IMG/VR virus record: IMGVR_UViG_3300025437_000009
DNA: 64,000 nt
Direction: 5' to 3' (one strand)
Origin: a virus
Taxonomy: Duplodnaviria > Caudoviricetes
Of the stretch, positions 7,883 to 56,149 are shown piece after piece. Under the pieces are notes generated by a model. It ran no database searches. It saw only the letters and a list, made by a program, of their open reading frames with translations, and had not been told where the DNA came from. The translations under genes and the position numbers were made by a program. Position 1 is the stretch's first letter, and every line of letters starts with the position of its first letter.

Positions 7883-8845
7883 TTATTTTGGTCTTCTTTG
7901 TGTGTAGTCATCCAATGACGAATAAAATTGTGGATCTTTTGCTGTTTGCGGCCAGGTGTTGGTTTTTTGTAAATTACGGTGAGCTGCGTATGAATAAACA
8001 TCCTTTGCAATATTGACATACTGTTGTAAAGTTAAATTGCTTTTTCCTTTGTTAATAATCCAAAGAACCCAAACAACATTTCCTGGTTTATATCCGCCGC
8101 CTGGGTTGATTTGATCAGGACTAGGGCTAGTCCACTCGCCGGCAGCTTTCAAAAACCCTTTTCCTATACTGGCACCAAACGGCAAACCACTGTAAGCACA
8201 ACGTTCCTGCTGTAAGTCGTGAAAAATATACCAGGCTTGCTCGATATCAAATTCTATTCCAGCTTTTTGACGTCCTAACATTCCTTGAATACTTTGTGCC
8301 CAATACTGATGCACGGTACTGTTTGGGTTAAACCCTTTACTTACAATTGATGTAATTTGCTGGTCCCATACCTGTGATGTTGGAATCCTAACAGGTTCCG
8401 TTGCTCCAGGTAACAAACTAGCTACATTTGAAGGGGGCACTTTAGTTGACGCCAACAAAACTTTTTTTAATGTTGAAATATTTCCTAAGACATGTTCGCA
8501 AAGACTTATAAAACTTGCCTGCGGCATATTCATTTTTACTGAATTTACACACCAACGAACAAACTGCACATTGTTGGCGGTATATCCAGCTGCAGGATTG
8601 ATTTGATCGGCACTGATCATGTCCCAGTTGCCGGCTCTCTCAAAACTAAATGGTTTACCTGTTAGAGCACACACTTGGCCTTGTCTTTGGAATATTGCCC
8701 AGGCTTCTTCTAACGACATTTGTGCTTTTTTGCGAAGGGTTGATCGCCAGAAATTTACAAACTGCACGTGTATAGGGTTGTTTGCATCGTACCCAGCAGT
8801 TCTGGCGGTATATGGATTGGCTTCGACAATTTCAAACGTTTTCAT
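7883..8845 (-). CDS. protein with two tandem His-Me/HNH-like nuclease domains
   Basis: Two repeats of CAxxGxPF...SxDQINPxxGYxxxNVxxVxWxxNxxK. N-terminus MKTFEIVEA. Confidence 0.6.
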   Translation of the reverse strand: MKTFEIVEANPYTARTAGYDANNPIHVQFVNFWRSTLRKKAQMSLEEAWAIFQRQGQVCALTGKPFSFERAGNWDMISADQINPAAGYTANNVQFVRWCVNSVKMNMPQASFISLCEHVLGNISTLKKVLLASTKVPPSNVASLLPGATEPVRIPTSQVWDQQITSIVSKGFNPNSTVHQYWAQSIQGMLGRQKAGIEFDIEQAWYIFHDLQQERCAYSGLPFGASIGKGFLKAAGEWTSPSPDQINPGGGYKPGNVVWVLWIINKGKSNLTLQQYVNIAKDVYSYAAHRNLQKTNTWPQTAKDPQFYSSLDDYTQRRPK

Positions 8846-8867
8846 ACTGGTTTCTTATAAATACCTA

Positions 8868-8988
8868 GTGCGGTAACAGTACAGCGTGATGCATCAAAGA
8901 ACCCGAGGATTTCCTGTACTTCCCCTCTGGGCAACAACGAATTGGCAGACGAGCTTTGTAGTGCATCGCCGCACACTTATTTTTTTTT
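8868..8988 (+). ncRNA. candidate pseudoknotted small RNA with its own late promoter
   Basis: TATAAATA at 8856-8863. Stems GTGCGG/CCGCAC, GATGCA/TGCATC, CAAAG/CTTTG, CCC-GAGG/CCTC-GGG, and a 7-bp pseudoknot AGTACAG/CTGTACT. A T-run follows. Confidence 0.55.
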
Positions 8989-9720
8989 ACGCCCTTGGCA
9001 ATGGGCACGTTGACTAAATCCTTTTGGGTGTGAACAATCAATACTGCGTTTGTATTTTTTAGACCATTTTTCATCTAAGACTGATTCATTTTTAGAACGA
9101 CCAGATTTCATATTAGCACACCAATGATACATCTTGGCACGTTCGCCTGAGGCACGTTTGGCTTTGGCACGTAGACTGGTCACACTACCTTTACAGCTGG
9201 CGCCTGCACGTTTGACACGCCCTGGACGACTTTTGCCTTTGACCTTGCCGTCGTGAAAGTTTTCTTTTAAGAATGTATCAGCTAGTCGTTTGCACAATTC
9301 TCGTAGTTTTGCGTTGTCTGTTTCTATGCTATCGTCGTGATCTTGTGTAGGATCTTTATATCCGCAATAGACGTGCTCTATGCCTGCATCAGCAATTATA
9401 TCTTCACAACTTTCGCCAGACCGGTCATTCATTGGACGATTACAAGGACTTAAGGTAGTAACAATTATACATTCTGGAGTAATATCACCGTAAGCATCAA
9501 TGGCTGCACGTTCAGCATGTACATATTTGTCATCAATTTTATAACTAGTACGGCAAACTTTTTGACCTTCGGGACCTAATACACAAGCACCAACCATGCC
9601 ATAATGGTCATTGTCTTTTTCTTGATTGTCAAGAACTAACTCGCATAATTCAGCAAGTATAGCATCTAATTCTTCTCGGGGATCACTAGACGGGGCTGTA
9701 AGGATTTCTTGGATAATCAC
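8977..9720 (-). CDS. zinc-dependent deaminase (RibD/cytidine deaminase fold) fused to basic Cys-containing modules
   Basis: Motifs HAERAA and TTLSPC...C. C-terminal basic modules are separated by ...ESVLDE. Confidence 0.75.
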   Translation of the reverse strand: MIIQEILTAPSSDPREELDAILAELCELVLDNQEKDNDHYGMVGACVLGPEGQKVCRTSYKIDDKYVHAERAAIDAYGDITPECIIVTTLSPCNRPMNDRSGESCEDIIADAGIEHVYCGYKDPTQDHDDSIETDNAKLRELCKRLADTFLKENFHDGKVKGKSRPGRVKRAGASCKGSVTSLRAKAKRASGERAKMYHWCANMKSGRSKNESVLDEKWSKKYKRSIDCSHPKGFSQRAHCQGRKKK

Positions 9721-9766
9721 TATTGTCGCCCTCGGCTTGTTCGGGATAAACTGGATATTCGTTCAT
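9686..9766 (-). CDS. putative 26-aa peptide MNEYPVYPEQAEGDNSDYPRNPYSPV
   Basis: ATG overlaps the upstream stop (ATGA coupling). The 3' part overlaps the deaminase start in another frame. Confidence 0.35.
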   Translation of the reverse strand: MNEYPVYPEQAEGDNSDYPRNPYSPV

Positions 9767-10125
9767 TCTGGATTTTCTTCGCTGTAGTTACGCATGATAA
9801 CACCAGCAGTAGCATTAGCATCATTTTCTTCGTCACTGCCAGTGACTCCAGAATCTGGACCTAATTTGTTTTCTTGATCTTGTTTATAGTGTACTAGTTC
9901 GTGTGCTAGTGTACGGAATACATCTTTTGGGTGACGACCTTTTGACACTAGATAAATTGTTTTTTCTTCTGGTTTGTAAGCACCAAATGTTAGGCCTTCT
10001 GCATCAGGAACCTTAGTAACTACATCAATACGTGGGTGCTCGTCAATACCCAAATGGTCACAGGCAAACTTAACAAAGTTTGGCAATTGACTGTGTATTG
10101 GATCAACTACTTCGAAGATTTTCAT
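9763..10125 (-). CDS. zinc metallopeptidase-like protein
   Basis: RTLAHELVH (HExxH). N-terminus MKIFEV. Confidence 0.65.
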   Translation of the reverse strand: MKIFEVVDPIHSQLPNFVKFACDHLGIDEHPRIDVVTKVPDAEGLTFGAYKPEEKTIYLVSKGRHPKDVFRTLAHELVHYKQDQENKLGPDSGVTGSDEENDANATAGVIMRNYSEENPE

Positions 10126-10526
10126 TTTTTCGTTTTAAGTTGTATAGCACCAACTCGACGTGTTGGACTTGTTTTGTTTACTGTGTCTACTTCATCTGAG
10201 CCGTCTGGTGTAAGTTGTGTGTGATTAGCTTCCCAACCAAATGCTTTAGCAGCTTGATCTAAAATCTTACGCTCGCCTTCACTGTAGGCCACAGCAACAA
10301 GACTTTGTCCATTTGGACCATCTTTTTTTGGCTCGTGTTCATATTTGCCATCTGGTGCACCAGCACCACCTAAGAAGTAAGCAGCAAAACGCCAGGGGTG
10401 ATATGGACTAGAGTTATCTAGCTTATGGTGACTACGCATACCCGGTGTAGCACTTTGATGGCTATCTGGAATACCGTCGTTGTCCTGATCCTTTATATCT
10501 TCGGTGATAATTTCGTTTATTTTCAT
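10122..10526 (-). CDS. hypothetical protein, probable internal head protein
   Basis: Likely start MKINEIITED at ATG 10526. Confidence 0.55.
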   Translation of the reverse strand: MKINEIITEDIKDQDNDGIPDSHQSATPGMRSHHKLDNSSPYHPWRFAAYFLGGAGAPDGKYEHEPKKDGPNGQSLVAVAYSEGERKILDQAAKAFGWEANHTQLTPDGSDEVDTVNKTSPTRRVGAIQLKTKK

Positions 10527-10957
10527 TTTGTAGTAGCCCTTAACATCCATGCATGTTTTTGGAACGCATCCATACGTTCTGCTAGGAAGTTTGAGAAGCC
10601 ATGCTGTCCTTCTGCTTCAGCTAGATCATAAACACGTTTAAGAATTTTAACCATGTTTTCTGCATCTGCTAGCAATTCATCAACCATTGCTATGCCAGGC
10701 ATAACTTCAGTTTCATCTTCAATACGTGTTAGTACACTAAAGCGACTATTGCTACCGGGAGCATAACCGCCTAAGCTACGAATCTTTTCTGCAAATTCAT
10801 CTACTGTACCGTAAACTTCTGAATAGATAGTTTCAAATAGACTATGTAGTTCTTGGAAGTTGATGCCTTCTACGTTCCAATGAAAGAAATGTGCTTTCAA
10901 ATAGAAAGTATATTGACTAGCAAATCCAATCTTAGCGGCTTTGATTAACTGTTCCAT
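10523..10957 (-). CDS. dps: Dps family ferritin-like DNA protection protein
   Basis: HFFHWNVEG, FQELHSLFE, DEFAEKIR ferroxidase signature; C-terminal KHAWML. Confidence 0.93.
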   Translation of the reverse strand: MEQLIKAAKIGFASQYTFYLKAHFFHWNVEGINFQELHSLFETIYSEVYGTVDEFAEKIRSLGGYAPGSNSRFSVLTRIEDETEVMPGIAMVDELLADAENMVKILKRVYDLAEAEGQHGFSNFLAERMDAFQKHAWMLRATTK

Positions 10958-10958
10958 G

Positions 10959-11444
10959 TTATTCCTTGTTTGGTACGCAGTTATTTACACGCACTCCACC
11001 TTTGACTTTGGTCTTAGGTGTGCCAATGTGTTTGCCTGACCAGCACTTAGGATCTAATCGTGTTTTAGTTGCTTTCGCTTCAGTTAATACTTGATTGTAC
11101 CATGTCATGGCATTTTCTAACATAACCATTAGATCCTGCACCGATTCGCAATGCCACTTGCGTAGAGCTTTGTTGATACGGCTGTTTGGATCACGTTTAG
11201 TTTTTGCACCAGCACGATGTTTCTTCATGCCCTTCATTCGAGCACAAAAACTCTTACGACGCTTAGAGGCTTTTGACCCCTTCTTTAACTTGCTAGGTTT
11301 TGTAGTAACGGCAGTCTGTAGTTTAGAGCCAGGATGACTACGGCGATAAGACGCAACACCCTTTTTATTTAGGCCGCCATTTTTGTTTTTGCCTTTACTG
11401 GTTTGCCAGGCTTCAGCTTCTACAACAAAATCTGAACTTTTCAT
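10959..11444 (-). CDS. basic modular protein, probable internal head protein
   Basis: Lys-rich module GGLNKKG...RRKSFCARM and terminal CW...NNCVP module, of a kind seen in T4-like phages. Confidence 0.6.
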   Translation of the reverse strand: MKSSDFVVEAEAWQTSKGKNKNGGLNKKGVASYRRSHPGSKLQTAVTTKPSKLKKGSKASKRRKSFCARMKGMKKHRAGAKTKRDPNSRINKALRKWHCESVQDLMVMLENAMTWYNQVLTEAKATKTRLDPKCWSGKHIGTPKTKVKGGVRVNNCVPNKE

Positions 11445-11445
11445 A

Positions 11446-13500
11446 TTACTTGATGCTTTCTTTTAATTCGTCAACTAAACTATTTAGTTTTTTGCTTTTT
11501 TCGTTCTGTAGCTTAGTCCAGTAGTCGGTGGATTCATCTACATGTTTAGGTTTCTTATGTGCCTTCTTCATAGCAATAGCAATAGCGGCCTGCTGTGCTG
11601 GGCTACCAGCTTCTTTCATAATAGGCATAAGTGTAATTTTATCCGCTTTGGTTTTGTCGCCCTGATTATATAACTTCTTCTTCCAGTTATCGTGGAATTG
11701 ACGAGCTTGTTCATAGTAGTCAAATTGTTTAACAGGTTTACCAGCTAGACAAACAGCATATGGTTCTACTTTTTTAAAGTCTTGATATCCCTCTGCTACA
11801 CCCTGTTTTAATTTGCGTTCATAATCAGCTATAATCTCATTGCGATATTGTGGACTTTGTGCAATAGCACGATTGATATGATCAGGATATACAGGAGTCT
11901 TGGCTTGTCGGTTTACTACTGCATGGTGACGTGGATCTGGATCATCTTCCCATTCGCCATCATCAAAATCATTTTCAAATTTCATATTACCACCAATTGG
12001 ACTTGCGCTATCGTTAGCCATAAAGTCATTACTGTCTTCATCAACACCTGTTAATGCTATCACAGGATCTGCACTTTCTTTAGCCCATTGATCGTGCTCG
12101 CTTGACCAGTCGTTTGTACCATCATACCAACTGTCTTCTTCAAGTCCAACCATTGTATACTTGTTAGCAGGATCTCTAACACCAATCTGCATGCCAGGAT
12201 ATTTGTTTTTGATAGCCTGTGCGTGACGCTGTGCCAACTCTTGTGACTCATGCGACTTAATAGGTACCCAATCTGCTCCTACACGTTTGCATACAGTATG
12301 ATACCCTGCCGCATTAGGTACTGTAAGTCCTCGAATAGCTAGGTCTTTCATGCCGCCTTCTTCTAATTCACCTTGATTGGGATCGGATACAGGTTTAACA
12401 TAAGCGCCTTTGTTGGTAAGATATTCGTGAATAAACTGTAACAAATAACTAGGATTACCAAATAGATTTAACACTAGAGTCTTTTTAGTTTCTGAATCAG
12501 GCATTGCAGATAGGATGTCCATGACACCTTTAATCTGTTTGCGTTTGATTTTGATTGGAATCAAACTGCCCGGAGCTTCAATATCTACTGTATCGTGATT
12601 CGCTACATACGCATTGACAAATTTTTGTAAATTATCATCTGCTACTTGTTTAACAAAAGGAGTTGGGTTAACAGCTTCTGCTACCTTTTGTCCACCCACT
12701 AGACTTAATAAACTAGCCGCTTTTTGTTGTCTTGCTGTACCTAGGTCTTTTACTTTACCTGCACCAGTAGTGGGCTTTGGTTGAACAGTGGGTTGATTAG
12801 CAGCCCAATTAGTAGCTGGTTGTGTTTGATACTGAGCCAATTGTTGTTTTGGACTTACTACTCGTCCTGGTGTTTGTGTCAATTGACTAGCCATCTGACC
12901 TAGTGCAGGACTTGCAGTAGGTTCTTGAGTTGTTTGAGCAGTAGGCTCTTGTGCCGTTTGTTGAGTCTGTTGAGGCTCGGCGGCAGTTGATGATGTTCTT
13001 GGAACAATAAATGTAGGAGCTGTTCTTGTTTGTGCAGGCTTAGTTGAAGCCTTAGGAGTTCCAGTAACTGGATTAAATAAGTCTTTGGGTTTTTGTGTTA
13101 CCTTAGGTTCTTCTCCACGCTCAATATCCTGTGCAGCACGTGCTTGCTCGGGCGGTGTAAGATCCATACCGGCAACTTTTTGTGTAAAGTCTTGGAAACG
13201 ACGTTCTTTGTCTTGTACAAACTTGTTAGTAGAATCGATCTGTTTATATAAATCTTTTTCTTGTTTTTGCAGTTGATCAATTTGTTGTTGCTGTTGTTGA
13301 TTTAACTGATCAGTTTTCCAACTGTGCGCCGCCAGGGCTTCTACATCATTAGCACCGGGATATTCTTTACGTGCAGCATCAATGGCCTTGCGAGTATCTG
13401 CATACTTAGTAGTTTTATAAAGATCTTTATCCTGAGATTTCTTTGCGCTAGCTTTTGCTTCTGCAAAGGTCAATGGATTAACTAAGTCGTACAAATTCAT
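11446..13500 (-). CDS. large modular low-complexity protein, probable internal head polyprotein
   Basis: Coiled coil, Q/T/P-rich linker, and modules separated by VAEA, LEEG, LEED, QGVAEG, KEAG, VDES. Confidence 0.65.
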   Translation of the reverse strand: MNLYDLVNPLTFAEAKASAKKSQDKDLYKTTKYADTRKAIDAARKEYPGANDVEALAAHSWKTDQLNQQQQQQIDQLQKQEKDLYKQIDSTNKFVQDKERRFQDFTQKVAGMDLTPPEQARAAQDIERGEEPKVTQKPKDLFNPVTGTPKASTKPAQTRTAPTFIVPRTSSTAAEPQQTQQTAQEPTAQTTQEPTASPALGQMASQLTQTPGRVVSPKQQLAQYQTQPATNWAANQPTVQPKPTTGAGKVKDLGTARQQKAASLLSLVGGQKVAEAVNPTPFVKQVADDNLQKFVNAYVANHDTVDIEAPGSLIPIKIKRKQIKGVMDILSAMPDSETKKTLVLNLFGNPSYLLQFIHEYLTNKGAYVKPVSDPNQGELEEGGMKDLAIRGLTVPNAAGYHTVCKRVGADWVPIKSHESQELAQRHAQAIKNKYPGMQIGVRDPANKYTMVGLEEDSWYDGTNDWSSEHDQWAKESADPVIALTGVDEDSNDFMANDSASPIGGNMKFENDFDDGEWEDDPDPRHHAVVNRQAKTPVYPDHINRAIAQSPQYRNEIIADYERKLKQGVAEGYQDFKKVEPYAVCLAGKPVKQFDYYEQARQFHDNWKKKLYNQGDKTKADKITLMPIMKEAGSPAQQAAIAIAMKKAHKKPKHVDESTDYWTKLQNEKSKKLNSLVDELKESIK

Positions 13501-14258
13501 TATAGTGTTCCTGCTGATTTCTGTTTAATTTGTTGTAGGTTTTGAATTAACTTGTTAGCATCGGCTGGATTGGCATTTACTAGAGCATCTTCAACACCCT
13601 TGCCAAGAGCACCAACAATCTTCTTACCAGTCTGATCCATACCAGCTCCAGTAGTTGGGTTGACATTAGGATTCTGTGCGTTAGCTACAGCAGTCTTGGC
13701 AGCTTGACTTGCACCAACTCCAGTTTTAATTCCAACTAAATTTTGTAACTTTTGGAATGCTTGACCAGTCTGTGCTGTTTGCTGAGCCAGTTGTCTTTGT
13801 TTAATAGGGTCTTGACCCTGAGGAGGATTATTTGCACCAGCTTCTTTTACTGTTTCTTGTTCTTTTACAAATTGTTCCCATGCGGCCATTAGTTCTTCTT
13901 CTAAGTCACCGTTTATTGGACTGCGACTATCATCAGGACCTGCACCCTGTACATAGTTCATCTCTAGGCCACTTTCTTCCATACCGCCTACACCCATACC
14001 TGGCTTAGGTGGGTTAGGATCAGTACCTTTCCAATAGCCACCAAACTTTGCACCCGATGGATGCTTTTCAGCATCAGCCATAGAACCTTCATCCATGTCG
14101 CCCATGATGTTGTCCCAAAATTCTGCGTGCTCATGTCCCCATTTTTCACAGAACTGATCACGTGTCATGCGCTCGGCATCACGCCACATGGCTTCTTTGG
14201 TCATGCCTTCATCTAAGCGTTTGAATGTCTGCAGAATGTTGTAAAAATTATTATCCAT
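13500..14258 (-). CDS. modular protein, probable internal head protein
   Basis: Linkers LDEG, MDEG, MEES, LEEE, VKEA. Confidence 0.6.
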   Translation of the reverse strand: MDNNFYNILQTFKRLDEGMTKEAMWRDAERMTRDQFCEKWGHEHAEFWDNIMGDMDEGSMADAEKHPSGAKFGGYWKGTDPNPPKPGMGVGGMEESGLEMNYVQGAGPDDSRSPINGDLEEELMAAWEQFVKEQETVKEAGANNPPQGQDPIKQRQLAQQTAQTGQAFQKLQNLVGIKTGVGASQAAKTAVANAQNPNVNPTTGAGMDQTGKKIVGALGKGVEDALVNANPADANKLIQNLQQIKQKSAGTL

Positions 14259-14713
14259 TACTTAGGAGCCTTAATTTTAACAGGACCGCCTTTGGTCATT
14301 TGATTAGTATAGGTCTTTTGACGCTTGATCATTTCGGTAGGCATATTACCCTGCTGAGAAAAACTTACGGCAACACTAGGGCTACCAGTAGCACCAGCAG
14401 TGGCATTTTCATTCAGACTTTCAGTGAACATACGTTCTGCATCTCTAGCATCAAATCCTGGAACTTCTGGTTGATGTCCCATTTCGTGCTGACTTTTTAA
14501 ATAATCAGTAACAGCATCAATCATACCTTTGGCAACAGCAATTTTTTCCTGGCACCATTCTGGGATATCTTCGTTATTTTTTAAACTTTTGGCTAGTTCA
14601 ACTGCATCGCGAACCATAGTATGTAGGTTATTTTTGACCATACCCACTTCGTCACTATACTCGTACTTTTCTGCTGATTCTGCGTATTTGTTAATAAAGT
14701 CTGTAGTTTTCAT
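14258..14713 (-). CDS. hypothetical protein, probable internal head protein
   Basis: N-terminus MKTTDFINKYAES; late TAAATA box at 14735-14740. Confidence 0.6.
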   Translation of the reverse strand: MKTTDFINKYAESAEKYEYSDEVGMVKNNLHTMVRDAVELAKSLKNNEDIPEWCQEKIAVAKGMIDAVTDYLKSQHEMGHQPEVPGFDARDAERMFTESLNENATAGATGSPSVAVSFSQQGNMPTEMIKRQKTYTNQMTKGGPVKIKAPK

Positions 14714-47404: not shown

Positions 47405-47950
47405 TTATAAACGACGATTAACGGCGTCCCAGTCAATGATACGCCAAATGTTGTCTAAATATTTTTCTTTGTTTGCATGATAGTCTAGTGACCAAGCGTG
47501 TTCCCACCAGTCTACTAGTAAGGCTATATCAGTGCGTTTTGCATGATTACGAATTGTTTTAATCTGTCCGGATTTACTGAGATAAATCCAACCAGATCCT
47601 TGAATCTTCATTGCTTCTGTTTTGAAGTTCTTTTTAAAGTCTACAAAGTTTGTGTGATGTCGATTAATAATATCAAGTATAGTGCCACGAGGACGGCTTA
47701 CCCCCGGGTTCTTGAATTGACTAAAGTAGATGCCGTGCAAGTATGCACCTGCTTCGTTGAATCCACGATCACCTTCATGTTTGTTGAAACGATCAACATA
47801 CCCTTTATACAACTTGCCATAGTGATAGTCGATAGTTGCCGAGCTCATCACTGGACTTAAAGCAGTTTTAGAATAGGGCAGTTTAATTTGCTCTAGTGTG
47901 CCTTTTTCTTTTGCTTCTAGGAGGTCTAGTGTTTGTCTTATATCAGTCAT
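47405..47950 (-). CDS. sod: Fe/Mn superoxide dismutase
   Basis: LPY...L.P, YHYGK, LHG, GSGW, DWWEHAW; metal ligands appear intact. Confidence 0.9.
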   Translation of the reverse strand: MTDIRQTLDLLEAKEKGTLEQIKLPYSKTALSPVMSSATIDYHYGKLYKGYVDRFNKHEGDRGFNEAGAYLHGIYFSQFKNPGVSRPRGTILDIINRHHTNFVDFKKNFKTEAMKIQGSGWIYLSKSGQIKTIRNHAKRTDIALLVDWWEHAWSLDYHANKEKYLDNIWRIIDWDAVNRRL

Positions 47951-54131: not shown

Positions 54132-54160
54132 ATTATAGCATATTGGCAATTATTTGTCAG
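54132..54160 (-). promoter_or_regulatory. sigma70-like early promoter
   Basis: CTGACA-17 bp-TATAAT with spacer AATAATTGCCAATATGC. Confidence 0.7.
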
Positions 54161-54557
54161 TATGTTTGAGTGTCGCCCACATTTGCTTTTGTTCCAAAAA
54201 TTTTAGTTCAAGTTCTCGGTAACGGTCAGCACAGGCCTTGAGTTCGTCAAACTCCTGCTCCAATACAGCGTTTCTTTTGATTCGTGTGGGGATCATTAGT
54301 TCGTCTCGGATGGTCTGCATGGTTTCTCGGAGACTTAGACCATCAAGTTCAATATCTTGTTCGGATATTTTGACTTTTGGTTGCTTGTCATAGTAAGGAG
54401 TTGCAGTGGTTGTCCAAATTGGGTTTGCTCCAGTTGCAGTAGTATAAACTAATCCGCTACCATTTCCTCCCGTTATGGTCACGTTACCGTAACTTGACCC
54501 GGCCAAGCCTGCAGCAGTGACCGGAATTGTAGTTTTGTATGTTGGTGTTTTGGCCAT
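54150..54557 (-). CDS. hypothetical protein
   Basis: T/G-rich N-terminus and coiled-coil C-terminus. Confidence 0.65.
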   Translation of the reverse strand: MAKTPTYKTTIPVTAAGLAGSSYGNVTITGGNGSGLVYTTATGANPIWTTTATPYYDKQPKVKISEQDIELDGLSLRETMQTIRDELMIPTRIKRNAVLEQEFDELKACADRYRELELKFLEQKQMWATLKHTDK

Positions 54558-54559
54558 AA

Positions 54560-54592
54560 AAAATCCTTATACGGTTAAGTATAAGGACTTTT
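54560..54592 (-). terminator. hairpin terminator overlapping a promoter
   Basis: TCCTTATAC/GTATAAGGA stem then TTTTT on the minus strand; TTGACA at 54601-54606. Confidence 0.55.
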
Positions 54593-54609
54593 CATGGTGT
54601 TGTCAATCG

Positions 54610-54715
54610 TTAGCTATTCAAAACTTTTGCCACACTATTCATTACTGATGCAATACGACCAATGTCACGCAAGTTTTCTACTGTGTAGCCTTCTTGCTTG
54701 AGTGTGTCAATGAGC
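54610..54715 (-). pseudogene. ahpD: orphaned duplicate of the ahpD 3' end
   Basis: Translates DTLKQEGYTVENLRDIGRIASVMNSVAKVLNS*, 26/32 identical to the intact AhpD C-terminus; no start codon. Confidence 0.9.
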
Positions 54716-55559
54716 CTTCCGCCACACCTTGCTCTACGCTTTCTTTCACTCCGAGTTTATCAATGATATACTTGCAACTTGATGCAGAAGTATTGATGAA
54801 ACCCATGAACATTGGCCTATCATCTTTCATCATTGGCATTATATTTTTAACAAAAGATCGTGCAGTTTCTTGGGTATAATTTGGAGGAAGTCCAACATAA
54901 TTGGCTAAAGCAGTCGATGCTTTGTATGATTTATTTGAATACTCCTCTAACATATTCATAAAACCATCATCTCTCGGTTGAGTATTTTTGAATACTCCTT
55001 TTGCCATTTCAAAAGTTCCAAAGCATTCCGCAGTAATTTTTGCCATTTCTCTGTAATCAGAATCGGCGACCGCTTGCTTAGCCGCACCTAATCCGATTGC
55101 GCCAACAGCCGCCGCACCCAAGCCTTTCAAAAATCCTCTACGGTCAATTTCATCTAACTGTGCTTCCGCCACACCTTGCTGTCCTTGGACAGGGCTGTCT
55201 CTAAGTGCATCTCGATAAAACTCTTTGAAATCTTGTGCCAATTCTCTTGCTGACCACGCCCAAGTTTGACTGTCCCAATCGTCTGTCATCTCAGCTTCAA
55301 GTTTAGTACTCGGGTCTCGACCACGACTAAACCCTATACGAACAGTATGTTCAATTTGTTTATTAACCAACTTTGCAAATAGTTTGCCATTGGGATTTGG
55401 ATTAATTGTTACTTTATATCCGTGTTTTTCAGCAAACTGTATCGTTGGCTGTAAGAACTGGATTTTAGGATCAACAACACCAGCTTGGGCTGGAATATCT
55501 TCCGCCACCGGAGTCTGTGCGGTTTCTATTAAGTTAATGTAATCTCTAAGTGTTTTCAT
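54678..55559 (-). CDS. modular probable internal head protein with an internal Tat signal peptide
   Basis: Start MKTLRDYINLIE after TAAATA (55567-55572); QGVAEAQLDEIDRRGFLKGLGAAAVGAIGLGAAKQAVA; ends QGVAEG plus a tail borrowed from the ahpD remnant. Confidence 0.8.
   Translation of the reverse strand: MKTLRDYINLIETAQTPVAEDIPAQAGVVDPKIQFLQPTIQFAEKHGYKVTINPNPNGKLFAKLVNKQIEHTVRIGFSRGRDPSTKLEAEMTDDWDSQTWAWSARELAQDFKEFYRDALRDSPVQGQQGVAEAQLDEIDRRGFLKGLGAAAVGAIGLGAAKQAVADSDYREMAKITAECFGTFEMAKGVFKNTQPRDDGFMNMLEEYSNKSYKASTALANYVGLPPNYTQETARSFVKNIMPMMKDDRPMFMGFINTSASSCKYIIDKLGVKESVEQGVAEGSLTHSSKKATQ
54716..55180. repeat. 18-bp perfect direct repeat CTTCCGCCACACCTTGCT
   Basis: Copies at 54716-54733 and 55163-55180; 10-bp core again at 55499-55508. 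Confidence 0.9.
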
Positions 55560-55633
55560 AATGTAGTATTTATTCCTTGTTCTTACAGTTATCGCCGTGC
55601 CAACATAAGATCGATCTCTCATAGAAATATTTA

Positions 55634-56149
55634 TCAACTATTCAACACCTTTGCTACACTATTCATTACTGCCGCTATTCTGCCGATGTCTCTCAACTGC
55701 TCAACAGTATACCCCATCTTTTTTAATCCATTATAATGGGCCGAGACACAGAACTTGCATTTTCCAACAATGCTTGCGGCAAGGCTATATGCCTCAAATC
55801 GTTCTTTAGTCGTACCACCGTGGGTTGTGATTGCGTTCATTCTGAGTTGAGCCGGAAGACCTTTAAGGTTAGCATCTTCTGCCATCTCTACATATGGATA
55901 CCAAGTGTTGTTCATCGACATCAAAGATGCGGCAGTGAGTGCGGCATCTCGCTCTTGTGAGTTTTCCATAGAACTTTGAATAAAGGTAACTAATTTCCCG
56001 TTACCTGTGCTCATTGCGGCGGCCAGCGCACAACCTTCTGCTTCCTCAACTGCTAGAGTACTACGCTTAATAACAGCGTCCAAGTTCAACTTAGTGTCCT
56101 TGGCGTACTCAGGCAGACCTTCTTTAAGTTGATCTACCCAGGCAGTCAT
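55634..56149 (-). CDS. ahpD: alkyl hydroperoxide reductase AhpD
   Basis: LPEYAKD.KLNL, MSMNN.WY, GKCKFCVSAH (CxxC); TAATG coupling to ahpC. Confidence 0.92.
   Translation of the reverse strand: MTAWVDQLKEGLPEYAKDTKLNLDAVIKRSTLAVEEAEGCALAAAMSTGNGKLVTFIQSSMENSQERDAALTAASLMSMNNTWYPYVEMAEDANLKGLPAQLRMNAITTHGGTTKERFEAYSLAASIVGKCKFCVSAHYNGLKKMGYTVEQLRDIGRIAAVMNSVAKVLNS

What the first reader, a model, noticed from the sequence alone, without database searches (positions are those of the whole stretch)
55060..55185. Hidden twin-arginine (Tat) signal peptide behind a predicted head-protease site
Seen: mid-protein QGVAEAQLDE-IDRRGFLKGLGAAAVGAIGLGAAKQAVA-DS has the Tat consensus RRxFLK, a hydrophobic h-region and an AxA cleavage site. 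It starts right after the 18-bp repeat. Established: T4 gp21 cleaves head proteins after Glu, and Tat needs an N-terminal signal. Inference: capsid maturation would unmask the signal, so an injected folded domain could be re-exported by host Tat to the periplasm. A possible role is superinfection exclusion or envelope remodelling without new translation.
Basis: partly seen in the sequence, partly recalled or inferred. Interest (0 to 1): 0.75.

Follow-up and report, generated by a model that had tools for sequence, protein, structure and literature searches.

The report
Buried Tat export signal in phage protein
An uncultured giant freshwater phage carries a genuine bacterial Tat export signal in the middle of a modular protein, just after protease-type cut sites, and dozens of related phage proteins keep the same layout, which suggests (untested) that cutting frees a cargo domain that the host then exports to its periplasm.

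Summary
Observation confirmed. Residues 138-165 of the 293-aa product of window 55559..54678 (-) pass NCBIfam's Tat-signal model (21.4 bits, cut-off 16.7). Pfam's model falls short (19.8 against 22.7).

It is not a one-off. 43 of 79 related metagenome proteins and 27 ORFs on giant-phage contigs carry the same unit, L-x-E-[IV]-D-RRGFLKG-x-GAAA. RR sits 12 residues after a QGVAE linker and usually more than 40 residues from the start. The unit is conserved as protein across synonymous codons. Different domains follow it, including TonB-C and an M48 peptidase. Here it is a confident four-helix bundle, whose stand-alone homologs carry Sec signals.

The protein starts with a T4-like capsid-targeting leader (MKTLRDYINLIE). 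Its junctions match T4 gp21 cut sites, and relatives encode a gp21-type protease. A near-identical contig lacks the Tat module, so it is a 447-bp in-frame cassette.

Reading partly supported. Cleavage, packaging and Tat export are all inferred. "Tat needs an N-terminal signal" is not strictly true, because FecR-type substrates use internal signals. That gives a serious rival without any capsid step.

The scan has noted the same layout on other phage genomes. I found no paper describing it.

The parts
54678..55559 (-). Gene for the 293-aa modular protein (P0001). The layout is leader, linker, N-module, linker, Tat signal, four-helix cargo, linker, short tail.
   Evidence: ORF and translation. 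Homologs P0002, P0005, P0026 and P0069 start at the same MKT, while the sequence upstream is not conserved.
55567..55574 (-). AATAAATA, a T4-late-promoter-like octamer 7 nt before the ATG. No Shine-Dalgarno sequence lies at working distance, so the start is possibly leaderless.
   Evidence: Seven hits in the window (six genes) show .ATAAATA followed by 4-8 nt and ATG. No sigma-70-like promoter lies upstream. This is suggestive only.
55524..55559 (-). Leader MKTLRDYINLIE (residues 1-12). It resembles a capsid-targeting sequence and ends in L-I-E.
   Evidence: T4 ipII and ipIII start MKTYQEFIAE, ipI starts MKTFKEF, and gp21 has LLIE followed by T. Most family proteins start M-[KR]-x-x-[DE]-[FLI].
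55500..55514 (-). Degenerate first linker TPVAE (residues 16-20).
   Evidence: It aligns with QGVAE of the homologs. The region is disordered in the model.
55179..55499 (-). N-module (about residues 21-127), the module most widely shared in the family. The predicted layout is helix, four strands, helix.
   Evidence: Alignment A3 has 19 sequences at 54-95% identity (one at 39%), found at varied positions in other proteins. The model has mean pLDDT 58.
55163..55180 (-). 18-bp repeat, copy 1, coding QQGVAE(A). This is the linker, with a candidate cut after E132 (V-A-E then A).
   Evidence: Exact repeat. The linker DNA is nearly invariant across contigs. T4 cuts I-A-E followed by A.
55149..55157 (-). 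L135-D136-E137, a candidate T4-type L-x-E cut site 2 residues before RR.
   Evidence: L at -5 is kept in 41 of 45 units and E at -3 in 42 of 45, with synonymous codon variety.
55065..55148 (-). Tat signal peptide (I138-A165). It has RRGFLKG at 55142-55122, a 15-residue uncharged h-region, and A-V-A at 55073-55065 as a signal peptidase I site.
   Evidence: TIGR01409 scores 21.4 bits against a cut-off of 16.7, over the full profile. A-x-A lies within +12..+36 of RR in 39 of 45 units. The stretch has low pLDDT, as a signal peptide should.
54734..55064 (-). Cargo domain (D166 to about E276), a four-helix bundle with two conserved Cys.
   Evidence: AlphaFold pLDDT is 86-96 over the bundle. P0013 is 53% identical. 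Stand-alone homologs of 121-123 aa carry Sec-type signals that align with the Tat signal.
54716..54733 (-). 18-bp repeat, copy 2, coding (E)QGVAE(G). This is the linker after the cargo, with a candidate cut after E281.
54681..54715 (-). Short C-terminal tail after the linker (residues 282-293). The stop codon lies at 54678-54680.
   Evidence: Translation. DNA homology with the relative L068 resumes at 54708.

Best explanation
The stretch encodes a working twin-arginine (Tat) export signal. It heads a swappable cargo module inside a leader-bearing, polyprotein-type phage protein.

**Proposed course**
1. The gene is expressed late.
2. The T4-like N-terminal leader takes the chain into the prohead.
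3. The T4-type, Glu-specific prohead protease cuts in the disordered junctions. The candidate sites are after LIE12, VAE20, VAE132 and/or LDE137, and VAE281.
4. The released 16-kDa piece now begins 3-8 residues before RR.
5. It enters the next host cell with the DNA and refolds.
6. Host TatABC exports it, and signal peptidase I trims it after A-V-A165.
7. A disulfide-capable four-helix-bundle protein ends up in the periplasm of a Gram-negative host, before any phage gene is expressed.

**Shown**
- The signal and its family-wide conservation.
- Its fixed place behind the junction.
- The modular cassette nature of the Tat module.
- The match of the leader and junctions to T4 sites.
- The presence of the protease in related phages.

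**Inferred**
- Packaging, cleavage, injection and export.
- What the cargo does in the periplasm.
For: **The signal**
- TIGR01409 scores above its cut-off over the whole profile.
- The unit L-[ED]-E-[IV]-D-RRGFL[KR]G-x-GAAA occurs 45 times in 43 of 79 relatives. RR lies exactly 12 residues after the Q of QGVAE and more than 40 residues from the start in 33 of 45 units. A-x-A follows in 39 of 45.
- On viral contigs RR is internal in 18 of 22 ORFs with a complete 5' end.
- There is protein-level selection: 28 DNA versions show synonymous variety but an invariant RRGFLKG.

**Periplasmic cargo**
- TonB_C/TolA_C and Peptidase_M48 domains follow the unit in other members.
- The window's cargo has stand-alone homologs with Sec signals and a conserved Cys pair.

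**Need for cleavage**
- P0019 and P0079 carry two Tat units in one chain.
- Chains such as P0013 and P0054 join a Tat module to the very basic DUF6321 module.

**Protease fit**
- T4 sites read from NC_000866 are FIAE/A, LIAE/A, LLIE/T, GLIE/A, LLRE/S and FLTE/A.
- The capsid-protein site in relatives aligns to T4's as YLRE/N, YLTE/T and LLAE/S.
- An S77 protease was found in 4 of 7 related contigs searched (G001; 3 of 5).
- The junctions are disordered in the models.

**Packaging**
- The leader is MKT-L-R-D-Y against T4's MKT-Y-Q-E-F.
- The leader is shared by most family members and by about 6 other genes of the window.
- There is a late-promoter-like start.
- The family's mini-modules occur in S-SCSM1 gp029, annotated as a virion protein in a record whose virion proteins were determined by mass spectrometry (PMC9602691).
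- T4 capsid-targeted fusions are delivered into the next cell and refold there (PMC9026906).
Against: - No virion, cleavage or export data exist for this clade. No cultured phage has the unit.
- The window itself does not contain the protease gene, and no whole genome is held.
- One 99%-complete 343-kb contig with a QGVAE-Tat protein shows no Pfam-detectable gp23 or S77.
- The linker is conserved as DNA (CAA GGT GTG GCG GAA GGC). That points to recombination and does not need a protease.
- Internal Tat signals can work uncleaved, as in FecR.
- Pfam's Tat model is below threshold.
- V at P3 is not a documented gp21 preference. I saw L or I in T4.
- The late-promoter reading is a motif match only.
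- The S-SCSM1 virion protein lacks both the leader and the QGVAE linkers.
Confidence: 0.4

Rival explanations
1. Export takes place in the producing cell, with no capsid step. The chain is made in the infected cell and the internal Tat signal is used there. This could happen in two ways. In the first, the signal is used directly by loop insertion, as in class V Tat substrates such as FecR. The leader and N-module stay in the cytoplasm and signal peptidase I frees the bundle into the periplasm. In the second, a non-capsid protease cuts first. On this reading the QGVAE linkers are mainly recombination joints and flexible spacers.
For: - Internal uncleaved Tat signals behind folded cytoplasmic domains are established (PMC13673990).
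- The linker is constrained as DNA rather than as protein.
- Module swapping occurs exactly at the linker.
- An A-x-A site after the h-region would release the cargo without any upstream cut.
- There is no direct evidence of packaging.
Against: - Two Tat units in one chain (P0019, P0079) cannot both face the right way without cleavage.
- Basic DUF6321 modules, which usually occur without any Tat unit, would be dragged across the membrane.
- The invariant acidic L-x-E-[IV]-D before RR is kept across synonymous changes and has no role in this model.
- Even the shortest members put the T4-like leader in front of the Tat signal (P0055, P0056; L056).
- The phage uses ordinary N-terminal Sec and lipoprotein signals for other exported proteins.
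Confidence: 0.3
2. Internal translation start. The GTG (or ATG) codon inside the linker acts as a second start. The Tat precursor would then be made on its own as M-A-E-A-Q-L-D-E-I-D-R-R..., with a normal N-terminal signal.
For: - The linker's Val codon is GTG in 13 and ATG in 2 of 15 linkers that precede Tat units. It is never a non-start Val codon there.
- In the window an AAGGA lies 9 nt upstream of it.
- Such a product would have RR at residues 11-12.
Against: - A core Shine-Dalgarno sequence lies 4-18 nt upstream in only 1 of 15 units, whereas the window's genes use strong ones.
- GTA occurs at the same codon in 4 of 19 linkers overall.
- There is no in-frame ATG between M91 and RR in the window.
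- The same linker joins many modules that have no signal.
Confidence: 0.08
3. Relic. The Tat signal came along when a cassette from a once free-standing exported protein was recombined into the gene. It has no function at its internal position.
For: - The Tat module is a 447-bp in-frame cassette between 18-bp repeats, and it is absent from a relative that is 92-98% identical.
- Stand-alone homologs of the cargo with their own signals exist.
Against: - Most copies are internal: 33 of 45 units, and 18 of 22 on viral contigs.
- The same signal heads unrelated cargo domains.
- RRGFLKG is invariant as protein across 28 DNA versions with synonymous changes.
- The A-x-A site is retained in 39 of 45 units.
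Confidence: 0.07

Closest known systems
T4 internal proteins IPI, IPII, IPIII and Alt: capsid-targeting sequence plus gp21 processing
   Same: - A short N-terminal leader, MKT followed by hydrophobic, x, acidic and aromatic residues, ending in [LI]-x-E.
- Glu-specific junctions.
- A hypervariable, swappable cargo.
- A T4-type gp23 capsid protein and S77 protease in related contigs.
   Different: - Several modules sit in one chain, joined by a DNA-conserved QGVAE linker.
- The cargo carries its own Tat signal, which is not reported for any T4 internal protein.
- Packaging is not shown here.
Ordinary cleavable N-terminal Tat signal peptides (TIGR01409 / PF10518, class I substrates)
   Same: - An RRxFLK core.
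- A weakly hydrophobic Gly/Ala h-region of 15 residues.
- An A-x-A site.
- A full-length match above NCBIfam's cut-off.
   Different: - RR lies at residue 140 of the primary product.
- The n-region is acidic and conserved (L-x-E-[IV]-D), with D rather than S or T before RR.
Class V Tat substrates: FecR-type internal, uncleaved Tat signal behind a folded cytoplasmic domain (PMC13673990)
   Same: An N-terminal domain, then an internal twin-arginine signal, then a folded C-terminal domain destined for the periplasm.
   Different: - Here the signal looks cleavable, with an A-V-A site and a short h-region.
- It recurs as a portable unit before unrelated cargos.
- It can occur twice in one chain, and it is flanked by protease-type sites.
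Bipartite thylakoid-lumen presequences (my own knowledge, not tested here)
   Same: Two targeting signals lie in series. Removal of the first by a processing peptidase leaves a Tat signal at the new N-terminus.
   Different: - The first signal would target a phage prohead, not an organelle.
- The peptidase would be a capsid maturation protease.
Head and inner-body proteins of phiKZ, 201phi2-1 and SPN3US, cut many times after Glu (PMC5694885, PMC9026906)
   Same: Giant-phage head proteins are processed at short x-x-E motifs, with redundant sites, and ejected into the host.
   Different: - Those motifs are S/A/G-x-E or A-x-E.
- No export signals are reported on the fragments.
- There is no conserved linker DNA.

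Membership tests
Tat signal peptide (TIGR01409 / PF10518) | Profile match above the curated cut-off | tested here: met
   TIGR01409 scores 21.4-22.8 bits against a cut-off of 16.7, over profile positions 1-29. Pfam PF10518 scores 19.8 against 22.7 and is not met.
Tat signal peptide (TIGR01409 / PF10518) | Twin-arginine core (S/T)-R-R-x-F-L-K, an uncharged h-region, and an A-x-A c-region | tested here: met
   The sequence reads D-R-R-G-F-L-K, then 15 uncharged residues, then A-V-A followed by D. D replaces S or T at -1.
Tat signal peptide (TIGR01409 / PF10518) | Location at the N-terminus of the translated protein | tested here: not met
   RR lies at residues 140-141 of 293. The feature would be met only after a cut at E132 or E137.
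Tat signal peptide (TIGR01409 / PF10518) | Export that depends on TatABC and on the RR pair | not testable with these tools
   The host is unknown. No phage TatA or TatC was found in 5 related contigs.
T4-type internal head protein with capsid-targeting sequence | N-terminal leader of about 10-12 residues like MKTYQEFIAE, ending in [LI]-x-E | tested here: met
   MKTLRDYINLIE compared with T4 ipII, ipIII and ipI read from NC_000866.
T4-type internal head protein with capsid-targeting sequence | gp21-type (Peptidase_S77) prohead protease and gp23 capsid protein in the same phage | tested here: inconclusive
   Neither lies in the window and no whole genome is held. Both are present in related contigs G001, G003, G006 and G007. 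Neither was detected in G002 or G004 (fragments) or in G005, which is 99% complete.
T4-type internal head protein with capsid-targeting sequence | Presence in the virion and removal of the leader | not testable with these tools
   The only evidence is indirect. S-SCSM1 gp029, which shares family mini-modules, is annotated as a virion protein (PMC9602691).
Class V (FecR-type) Tat substrate | Internal Tat signal that stays uncleaved as a membrane anchor behind a folded N-terminal domain | tested here: inconclusive
   The N-module model has mean pLDDT 58. The h-region has only 15 uncharged residues and an A-x-A site, so it looks cleavable. This is a prediction only.
Giant-phage head proteins cut after Glu (phiKZ / SPN3US type) | S/A/G-x-E or A-x-E motif at the junction | tested here: inconclusive
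   The window has V-A-E and L-D-E. The family consensus G-S-L-E-E also contains S-L-E.

The most novel reading that the evidence does not exclude
A lineage of giant aquatic phages loads its capsids with leader-tagged polyproteins built from in-frame cassettes. The head protease chops them at a universal junction. Some of the released pieces carry a now-exposed Tat signal. Pre-made phage proteins injected with the DNA would then be re-routed by the host's own Tat machinery into the periplasm within moments of infection. This would be a two-step address system, capsid first and periplasm second, and a delivery route for virion effectors that has not been described.
Probability: 0.35. Interest if true: 0.9.

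Novelty: new variant of a known kind. Interest (0 to 1): 0.75.

Why it matters
Known virion-delivered phage proteins act in the cytoplasm or form the entry channel. A Tat address on packaged cargo would mean that phages can place ready-made proteins in the periplasm of a newly infected cell without any gene expression. Such proteins could be TonB/TolA-like domains, peptidases or helical bundles.

That would bear on superinfection exclusion, envelope takeover and early counter-defence. It would add a proteolytically unmasked class to the known kinds of Tat substrate.

It would also explain why these phages build polyproteins: one capsid leader brings in many cargos.

Finally, the linker, Tat unit and cassette design is a natural template for phage-based delivery of proteins to the periplasm in laboratory strains.

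Tried and rejected
- **Cultured phages.** tblastn of the whole protein and of a consensus linker-plus-Tat unit against 50,697 phage records found nothing. The tail-fibre DNA found nothing either.
- **PHROGs.** No family matched.
- **Cargo homologs.** A word-based search with the cargo alone found nothing.
- **Cargo fold.** Foldseek against PDB had no match at E 0.001 or better. AFDB clusters gave only weak generic bundles (lipoprotein, copper-binding bundle, LprI-N). The Atlas gave nothing usable. VIA-align wide gave a top Z of 7.0, which is ordinary for helical bundles. No specific function can be named. A Spackle-like role is only my speculation and was not among the matches.
- **Joint fold of both modules.** MAFFT misaligned the partial homologs, so the modules were folded apart.
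- **Phage TatA or TatC.** None was found in 5 related contigs.
- **Internal start.** Considered and judged unlikely.
- **Literature.** Searches for QGVAE, and for Tat with polyprotein, phage or virion, found nothing relevant.
- **Complex prediction.** Not used. A signal peptide with a stand-in TatC, or a protease with its substrate, is the kind of pair the tool advises against.
- **Sequencing-run tools.** Not used, because reads cannot show protein cleavage.

Full report
**What is there**

The stretch lies in a minus-strand gene, window 55559..54678, whose product has 293 residues. The start is the ATG of MKTLRDY. Close homologs begin at that point, and what lies upstream is not conserved.

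The window belongs to an uncultured giant phage with T4-type core genes. Its DNA polymerase is 52% identical to that of Sinorhizobium phage Phosso and 48% identical to that of Agrobacterium phage Atu_ph07. No whole genome is held.

The quoted peptide is present exactly as written.
- The linker Q128-G-V-A-E132 is followed by A-Q-L-D-E137.
- Then comes I-D-R140-R-G-F-L-K-G and 15 uncharged residues.
- Then comes A163-V-A165, followed by D-S.

NCBIfam's Tat-signal model TIGR01409 matches residues 138-165 over its whole length, at 21.4 bits against a cut-off of 16.7. Pfam's shorter model stays below threshold at 19.8 against 22.7. This is the only RR.FL[KR] match in all six frames of the window.

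**Anatomy of the protein**

Alignment with relatives shows that the chain is a string of units.
- A 12-residue leader.
- A degenerate linker, TPVAE, which reads QGVAE in homologs.
- An N-module of about 107 residues.
- A QGVAE linker.
- The Tat signal.
- A cargo domain of about 110 residues.
- A second QGVAE linker and a 12-residue tail.

The two full linkers are coded by an exact 18-bp repeat.

AlphaFold gives the cargo as a confident four-helix bundle, with pLDDT 86-96. The signal and both junctions come out with low confidence, as disordered segments would. The N-module model is mediocre (mean pLDDT 58).

**It is a family-wide design, not an accident**

Exhaustive and word-based protein searches found about 80 relatives in metagenomes. 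These are modular proteins of 100 to more than 1200 residues. The same modules occur in different orders, joined by [EQ]-Q-G-V-A-E-G linkers. There are 138 linkers in 61 proteins.

Forty-three of the 79 proteins carry the unit L-[ED]-E-[IV]-D-R-R-G-F-L-[KR]-G-x-G-A-A-A, 45 times in all.
- RR lies exactly 12 residues after the Q of the linker.
- It lies more than 40 residues from the N-terminus in 33 of 45 cases.
- An A-x-A motif follows in 39 of 45.

A scan of IMG/VR with an alignment of the unit gave 32 loci on viral contigs of up to 524 kb. Of 22 ORFs with a complete 5' end, 18 have RR beyond residue 40, in one case at residue 661.

In 28 distinct DNA versions RRGFLKG never changes as protein, while its codons vary synonymously. 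R is CGT or CGC, the second R is AGA, CGA or CGC, and L uses four codons. The signal is therefore under protein-level selection.

The linker behaves differently. It is nearly invariant as DNA, CAA GGT GTG GCG GAA GGC, in a genome of about 40% G+C. That points to a role as a recombination joint as well.

**The Tat module is a cassette**

A metagenome contig, L068, is 92-98% identical to the window across the same ahpC-ahpD locus. It has the same leader and N-module. Homology breaks at the end of the 18-bp linker and resumes 8 nt after the window's second linker copy. L068 carries an unrelated 185-bp module just after its only linker copy. The Tat signal, its cargo and one linker copy (447 bp) therefore form an in-frame insertion between direct repeats.

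**Where the cargo is meant to go**

Different domains follow the unit in other members.
- TonB_C/TolA_C follows it in P0022 and P0061.
- Peptidase_M48 follows it in P0068.

TonB_C and TolA_C are domains of the periplasm of Gram-negative bacteria.

The window's cargo has a 53% identical copy in P0013, also behind an internal ELDEIDRRGFLKGLG. It also has stand-alone homologs of 121-123 residues, whose ordinary Sec-type signal peptides align with the Tat signal. Two Cys are conserved in four of five sequences. This fits an extracytoplasmic protein.

Fold searches gave only generic helical bundles, so the function of the cargo is open.

**Evidence for cutting**

Two family proteins, P0019 and P0079, carry two Tat units in one chain. 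Several join a Tat module to the very basic DUF6321 module, which mostly occurs in chains without any Tat unit. Neither arrangement makes topological sense unless the chain is cut.

The residues before RR are conserved beyond anything Tat is known to need. L at -5 is kept in 41 of 45 units and E at -3 in 42 of 45, across synonymous changes.

Read from the T4 genome, gp21 sites are FIAE/A (IPII, IPIII), LIAE/A (gp22), LLIE/T (gp21), GLIE/A (gp67), LLRE/S (gp24) and FLTE/A (gp23). That T4 and giant-phage prohead proteases cut after Glu at short motifs, often at redundant sites, is stated in PMC5694885 and PMC9026906.

The window protein offers NLIE12/T, PVAE20/D, GVAE132/A, LDE137/I and GVAE281/G.

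Related contigs G001, G003, G006 and G007 encode a gp23-type capsid protein and a Peptidase_S77 protease. In an alignment with T4 gp23, their capsid proteins have YLRE/N, YLTE/T and LLAE/S at the position of T4's maturation site.

**Evidence for packaging**

The leader MKT-L-R-D-Y-I matches the T4 capsid-targeting sequence MKT-Y-Q-E-F-I in register. According to PMC9026906, the first 10 residues of IPIII suffice for packaging. Targeting depends mainly on residues 4 and 7, and processing depends on residues 8 and 10.

Most complete family members start M-[KR]-x-x-[DE]-[FLI]. This includes the shortest ones, where the leader directly precedes the Tat signal (P0055: MKAYEFLTESQLDEIDRRGFLKG). Several other genes of the window start the same way, clustered at 7.9-14.7 kb.

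An AATAAATA octamer sits 7 nt before the ATG. This arrangement recurs before five other genes of the window.

Mini-modules of the family (DUF6321 and two Cys-containing modules) occur in T4-like cyanophages, in a gene of the structural region. In S-SCSM1 that protein, gp029, is annotated as a virion protein. The virion proteins of that phage were determined by mass spectrometry of CsCl-purified particles (PMC9602691). That protein has neither the leader nor the QGVAE linkers, so the link is indirect.

**The main rival**

A current review lists two exceptions (PMC13673990).
- Class IV substrates have internal signals in polytopic proteins.
- Class V substrates, with FecR as the example, have an internal uncleaved signal behind a folded cytoplasmic domain.

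The window protein could therefore be exported in the producing cell without any capsid step, with signal peptidase freeing the cargo. I give this 0.30, against 0.40 for the capsid-unmasking model.

Against the rival stand the double-signal chains, the conserved L-x-E, the leader on even the shortest members, and the phage's use of plain Sec or lipoprotein signals elsewhere.

An internal start at the linker's GTG is unlikely. That codon is the only in-frame start-type codon between M91 and RR. A core Shine-Dalgarno sequence precedes it in 1 of 15 units, although the window's genes use strong ones. The same codon is GTA in 4 of 19 linkers overall.

A functionless relic is unlikely, given the protein-level conservation.

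**Known or new**

No cultured phage has the unit, and three literature searches found no description of it.

The scan's own earlier notes record the same layout in other marine and freshwater giant phages, and in Omnitrophota giant proteins. I treated those notes as leads, not as evidence.

The parts are known: the Tat signal, the capsid-targeting leader and the Glu-specific head protease. Their combination would be a new variant. It would be a proteolytically unmasked Tat substrate delivered by a virion, working like the bipartite presequences of thylakoid-lumen proteins (my own knowledge).

**Verdict**

Noticed in passing
window 54708-55180 compared with L068:3482-3693: A contig that is 92-98% identical has the same gene without the Tat module. 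The Tat signal, cargo and one linker copy (447 bp) lie between the two 18-bp repeats. The relative has a different 185-bp module after its single linker. This is in-frame cassette exchange at the linker.
   Followed up: yes
window 54614-54690 and 55638-55714: The last 26 or so codons of ahpD occur twice, at 75% DNA identity. The orphan copy lies just past the gene's stop, in another frame. The relative L068 has the same arrangement, so the leader-bearing gene is an older insertion into the 3' end of ahpD.
   Followed up: partly
linkers in window, L001-L013, L031-L062 and G001: The QGVAE(G) linker is almost invariant as DNA (CAA GGT GTG GCG GAA GGC) across many contigs of a genome with about 40% G+C. 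The adjacent Tat unit varies synonymously. The linker seems to be selected as DNA (recombination joint) as well as, or instead of, as protein.
   Followed up: partly
window 7883-14713 (-): A cluster of genes next to the DNA polymerase have products that start with the same T4-like leader: MKTTDFI, MNLYDLV, MKSSDFV, MKINEII, MKIFEVV and MKTFEIV. The cluster includes a 684-aa modular protein with a QGVAE linker (P0080) and a DUF6321 protein. It is syntenic with the locus of P0013 in L001. It may be this phage's variable internal-protein region.
   Followed up: partly
window 47405-47950 (-): An Fe/Mn superoxide dismutase has an N-terminal extension MTDIRQTLDLLE followed by AKE, and AATAAATA 5 nt before its ATG. 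It may be another leader-tagged, possibly packaged, protein.
   Followed up: partly
window 55574, 47963, 35009, 28072, 20594 (-) and 33851 (+): The pattern .ATAAATA followed by 4-8 nt and ATG, with no Shine-Dalgarno sequence, precedes six genes. These look like T4-late-type promoters driving leaderless or nearly leaderless mRNAs.
   Followed up: partly
L067:1309-2862 (Synechococcus phage S-SCSM1 gp029) and L066:2446-3261 (P-SSM2): T4-like cyanophages carry, in their structural gene block, a basic modular protein. It is built from the same mini-modules (DUF6321 and two Cys-containing modules) as the freshwater polyproteins, but without QGVAE linkers, the leader or Tat units.
   Followed up: partly
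G005 (IMGVR_UViG_3300032268_000986, 342,865 bp), locus L040: A 99%-complete giant-phage contig has a 633-aa QGVAE-linked protein with an internal Tat unit. It shows no Pfam-detectable gp23 or S77 protease, so the design may cross phage lineages.
   Followed up: no
P0043 (5271 aa, metagenome): A giant protein matched the query in 12 separate stretches and contains QGVAE-type linkers. It was not examined.
   Followed up: no
window 54564-54606: A strong sigma-70-like promoter (TTGACA, 17 nt, TATACT; 11 of 12 matches) on the minus strand, together with a 9-bp hairpin, sits between this gene and the next one (54557..54150). The downstream gene is therefore probably transcribed separately.
   Followed up: no
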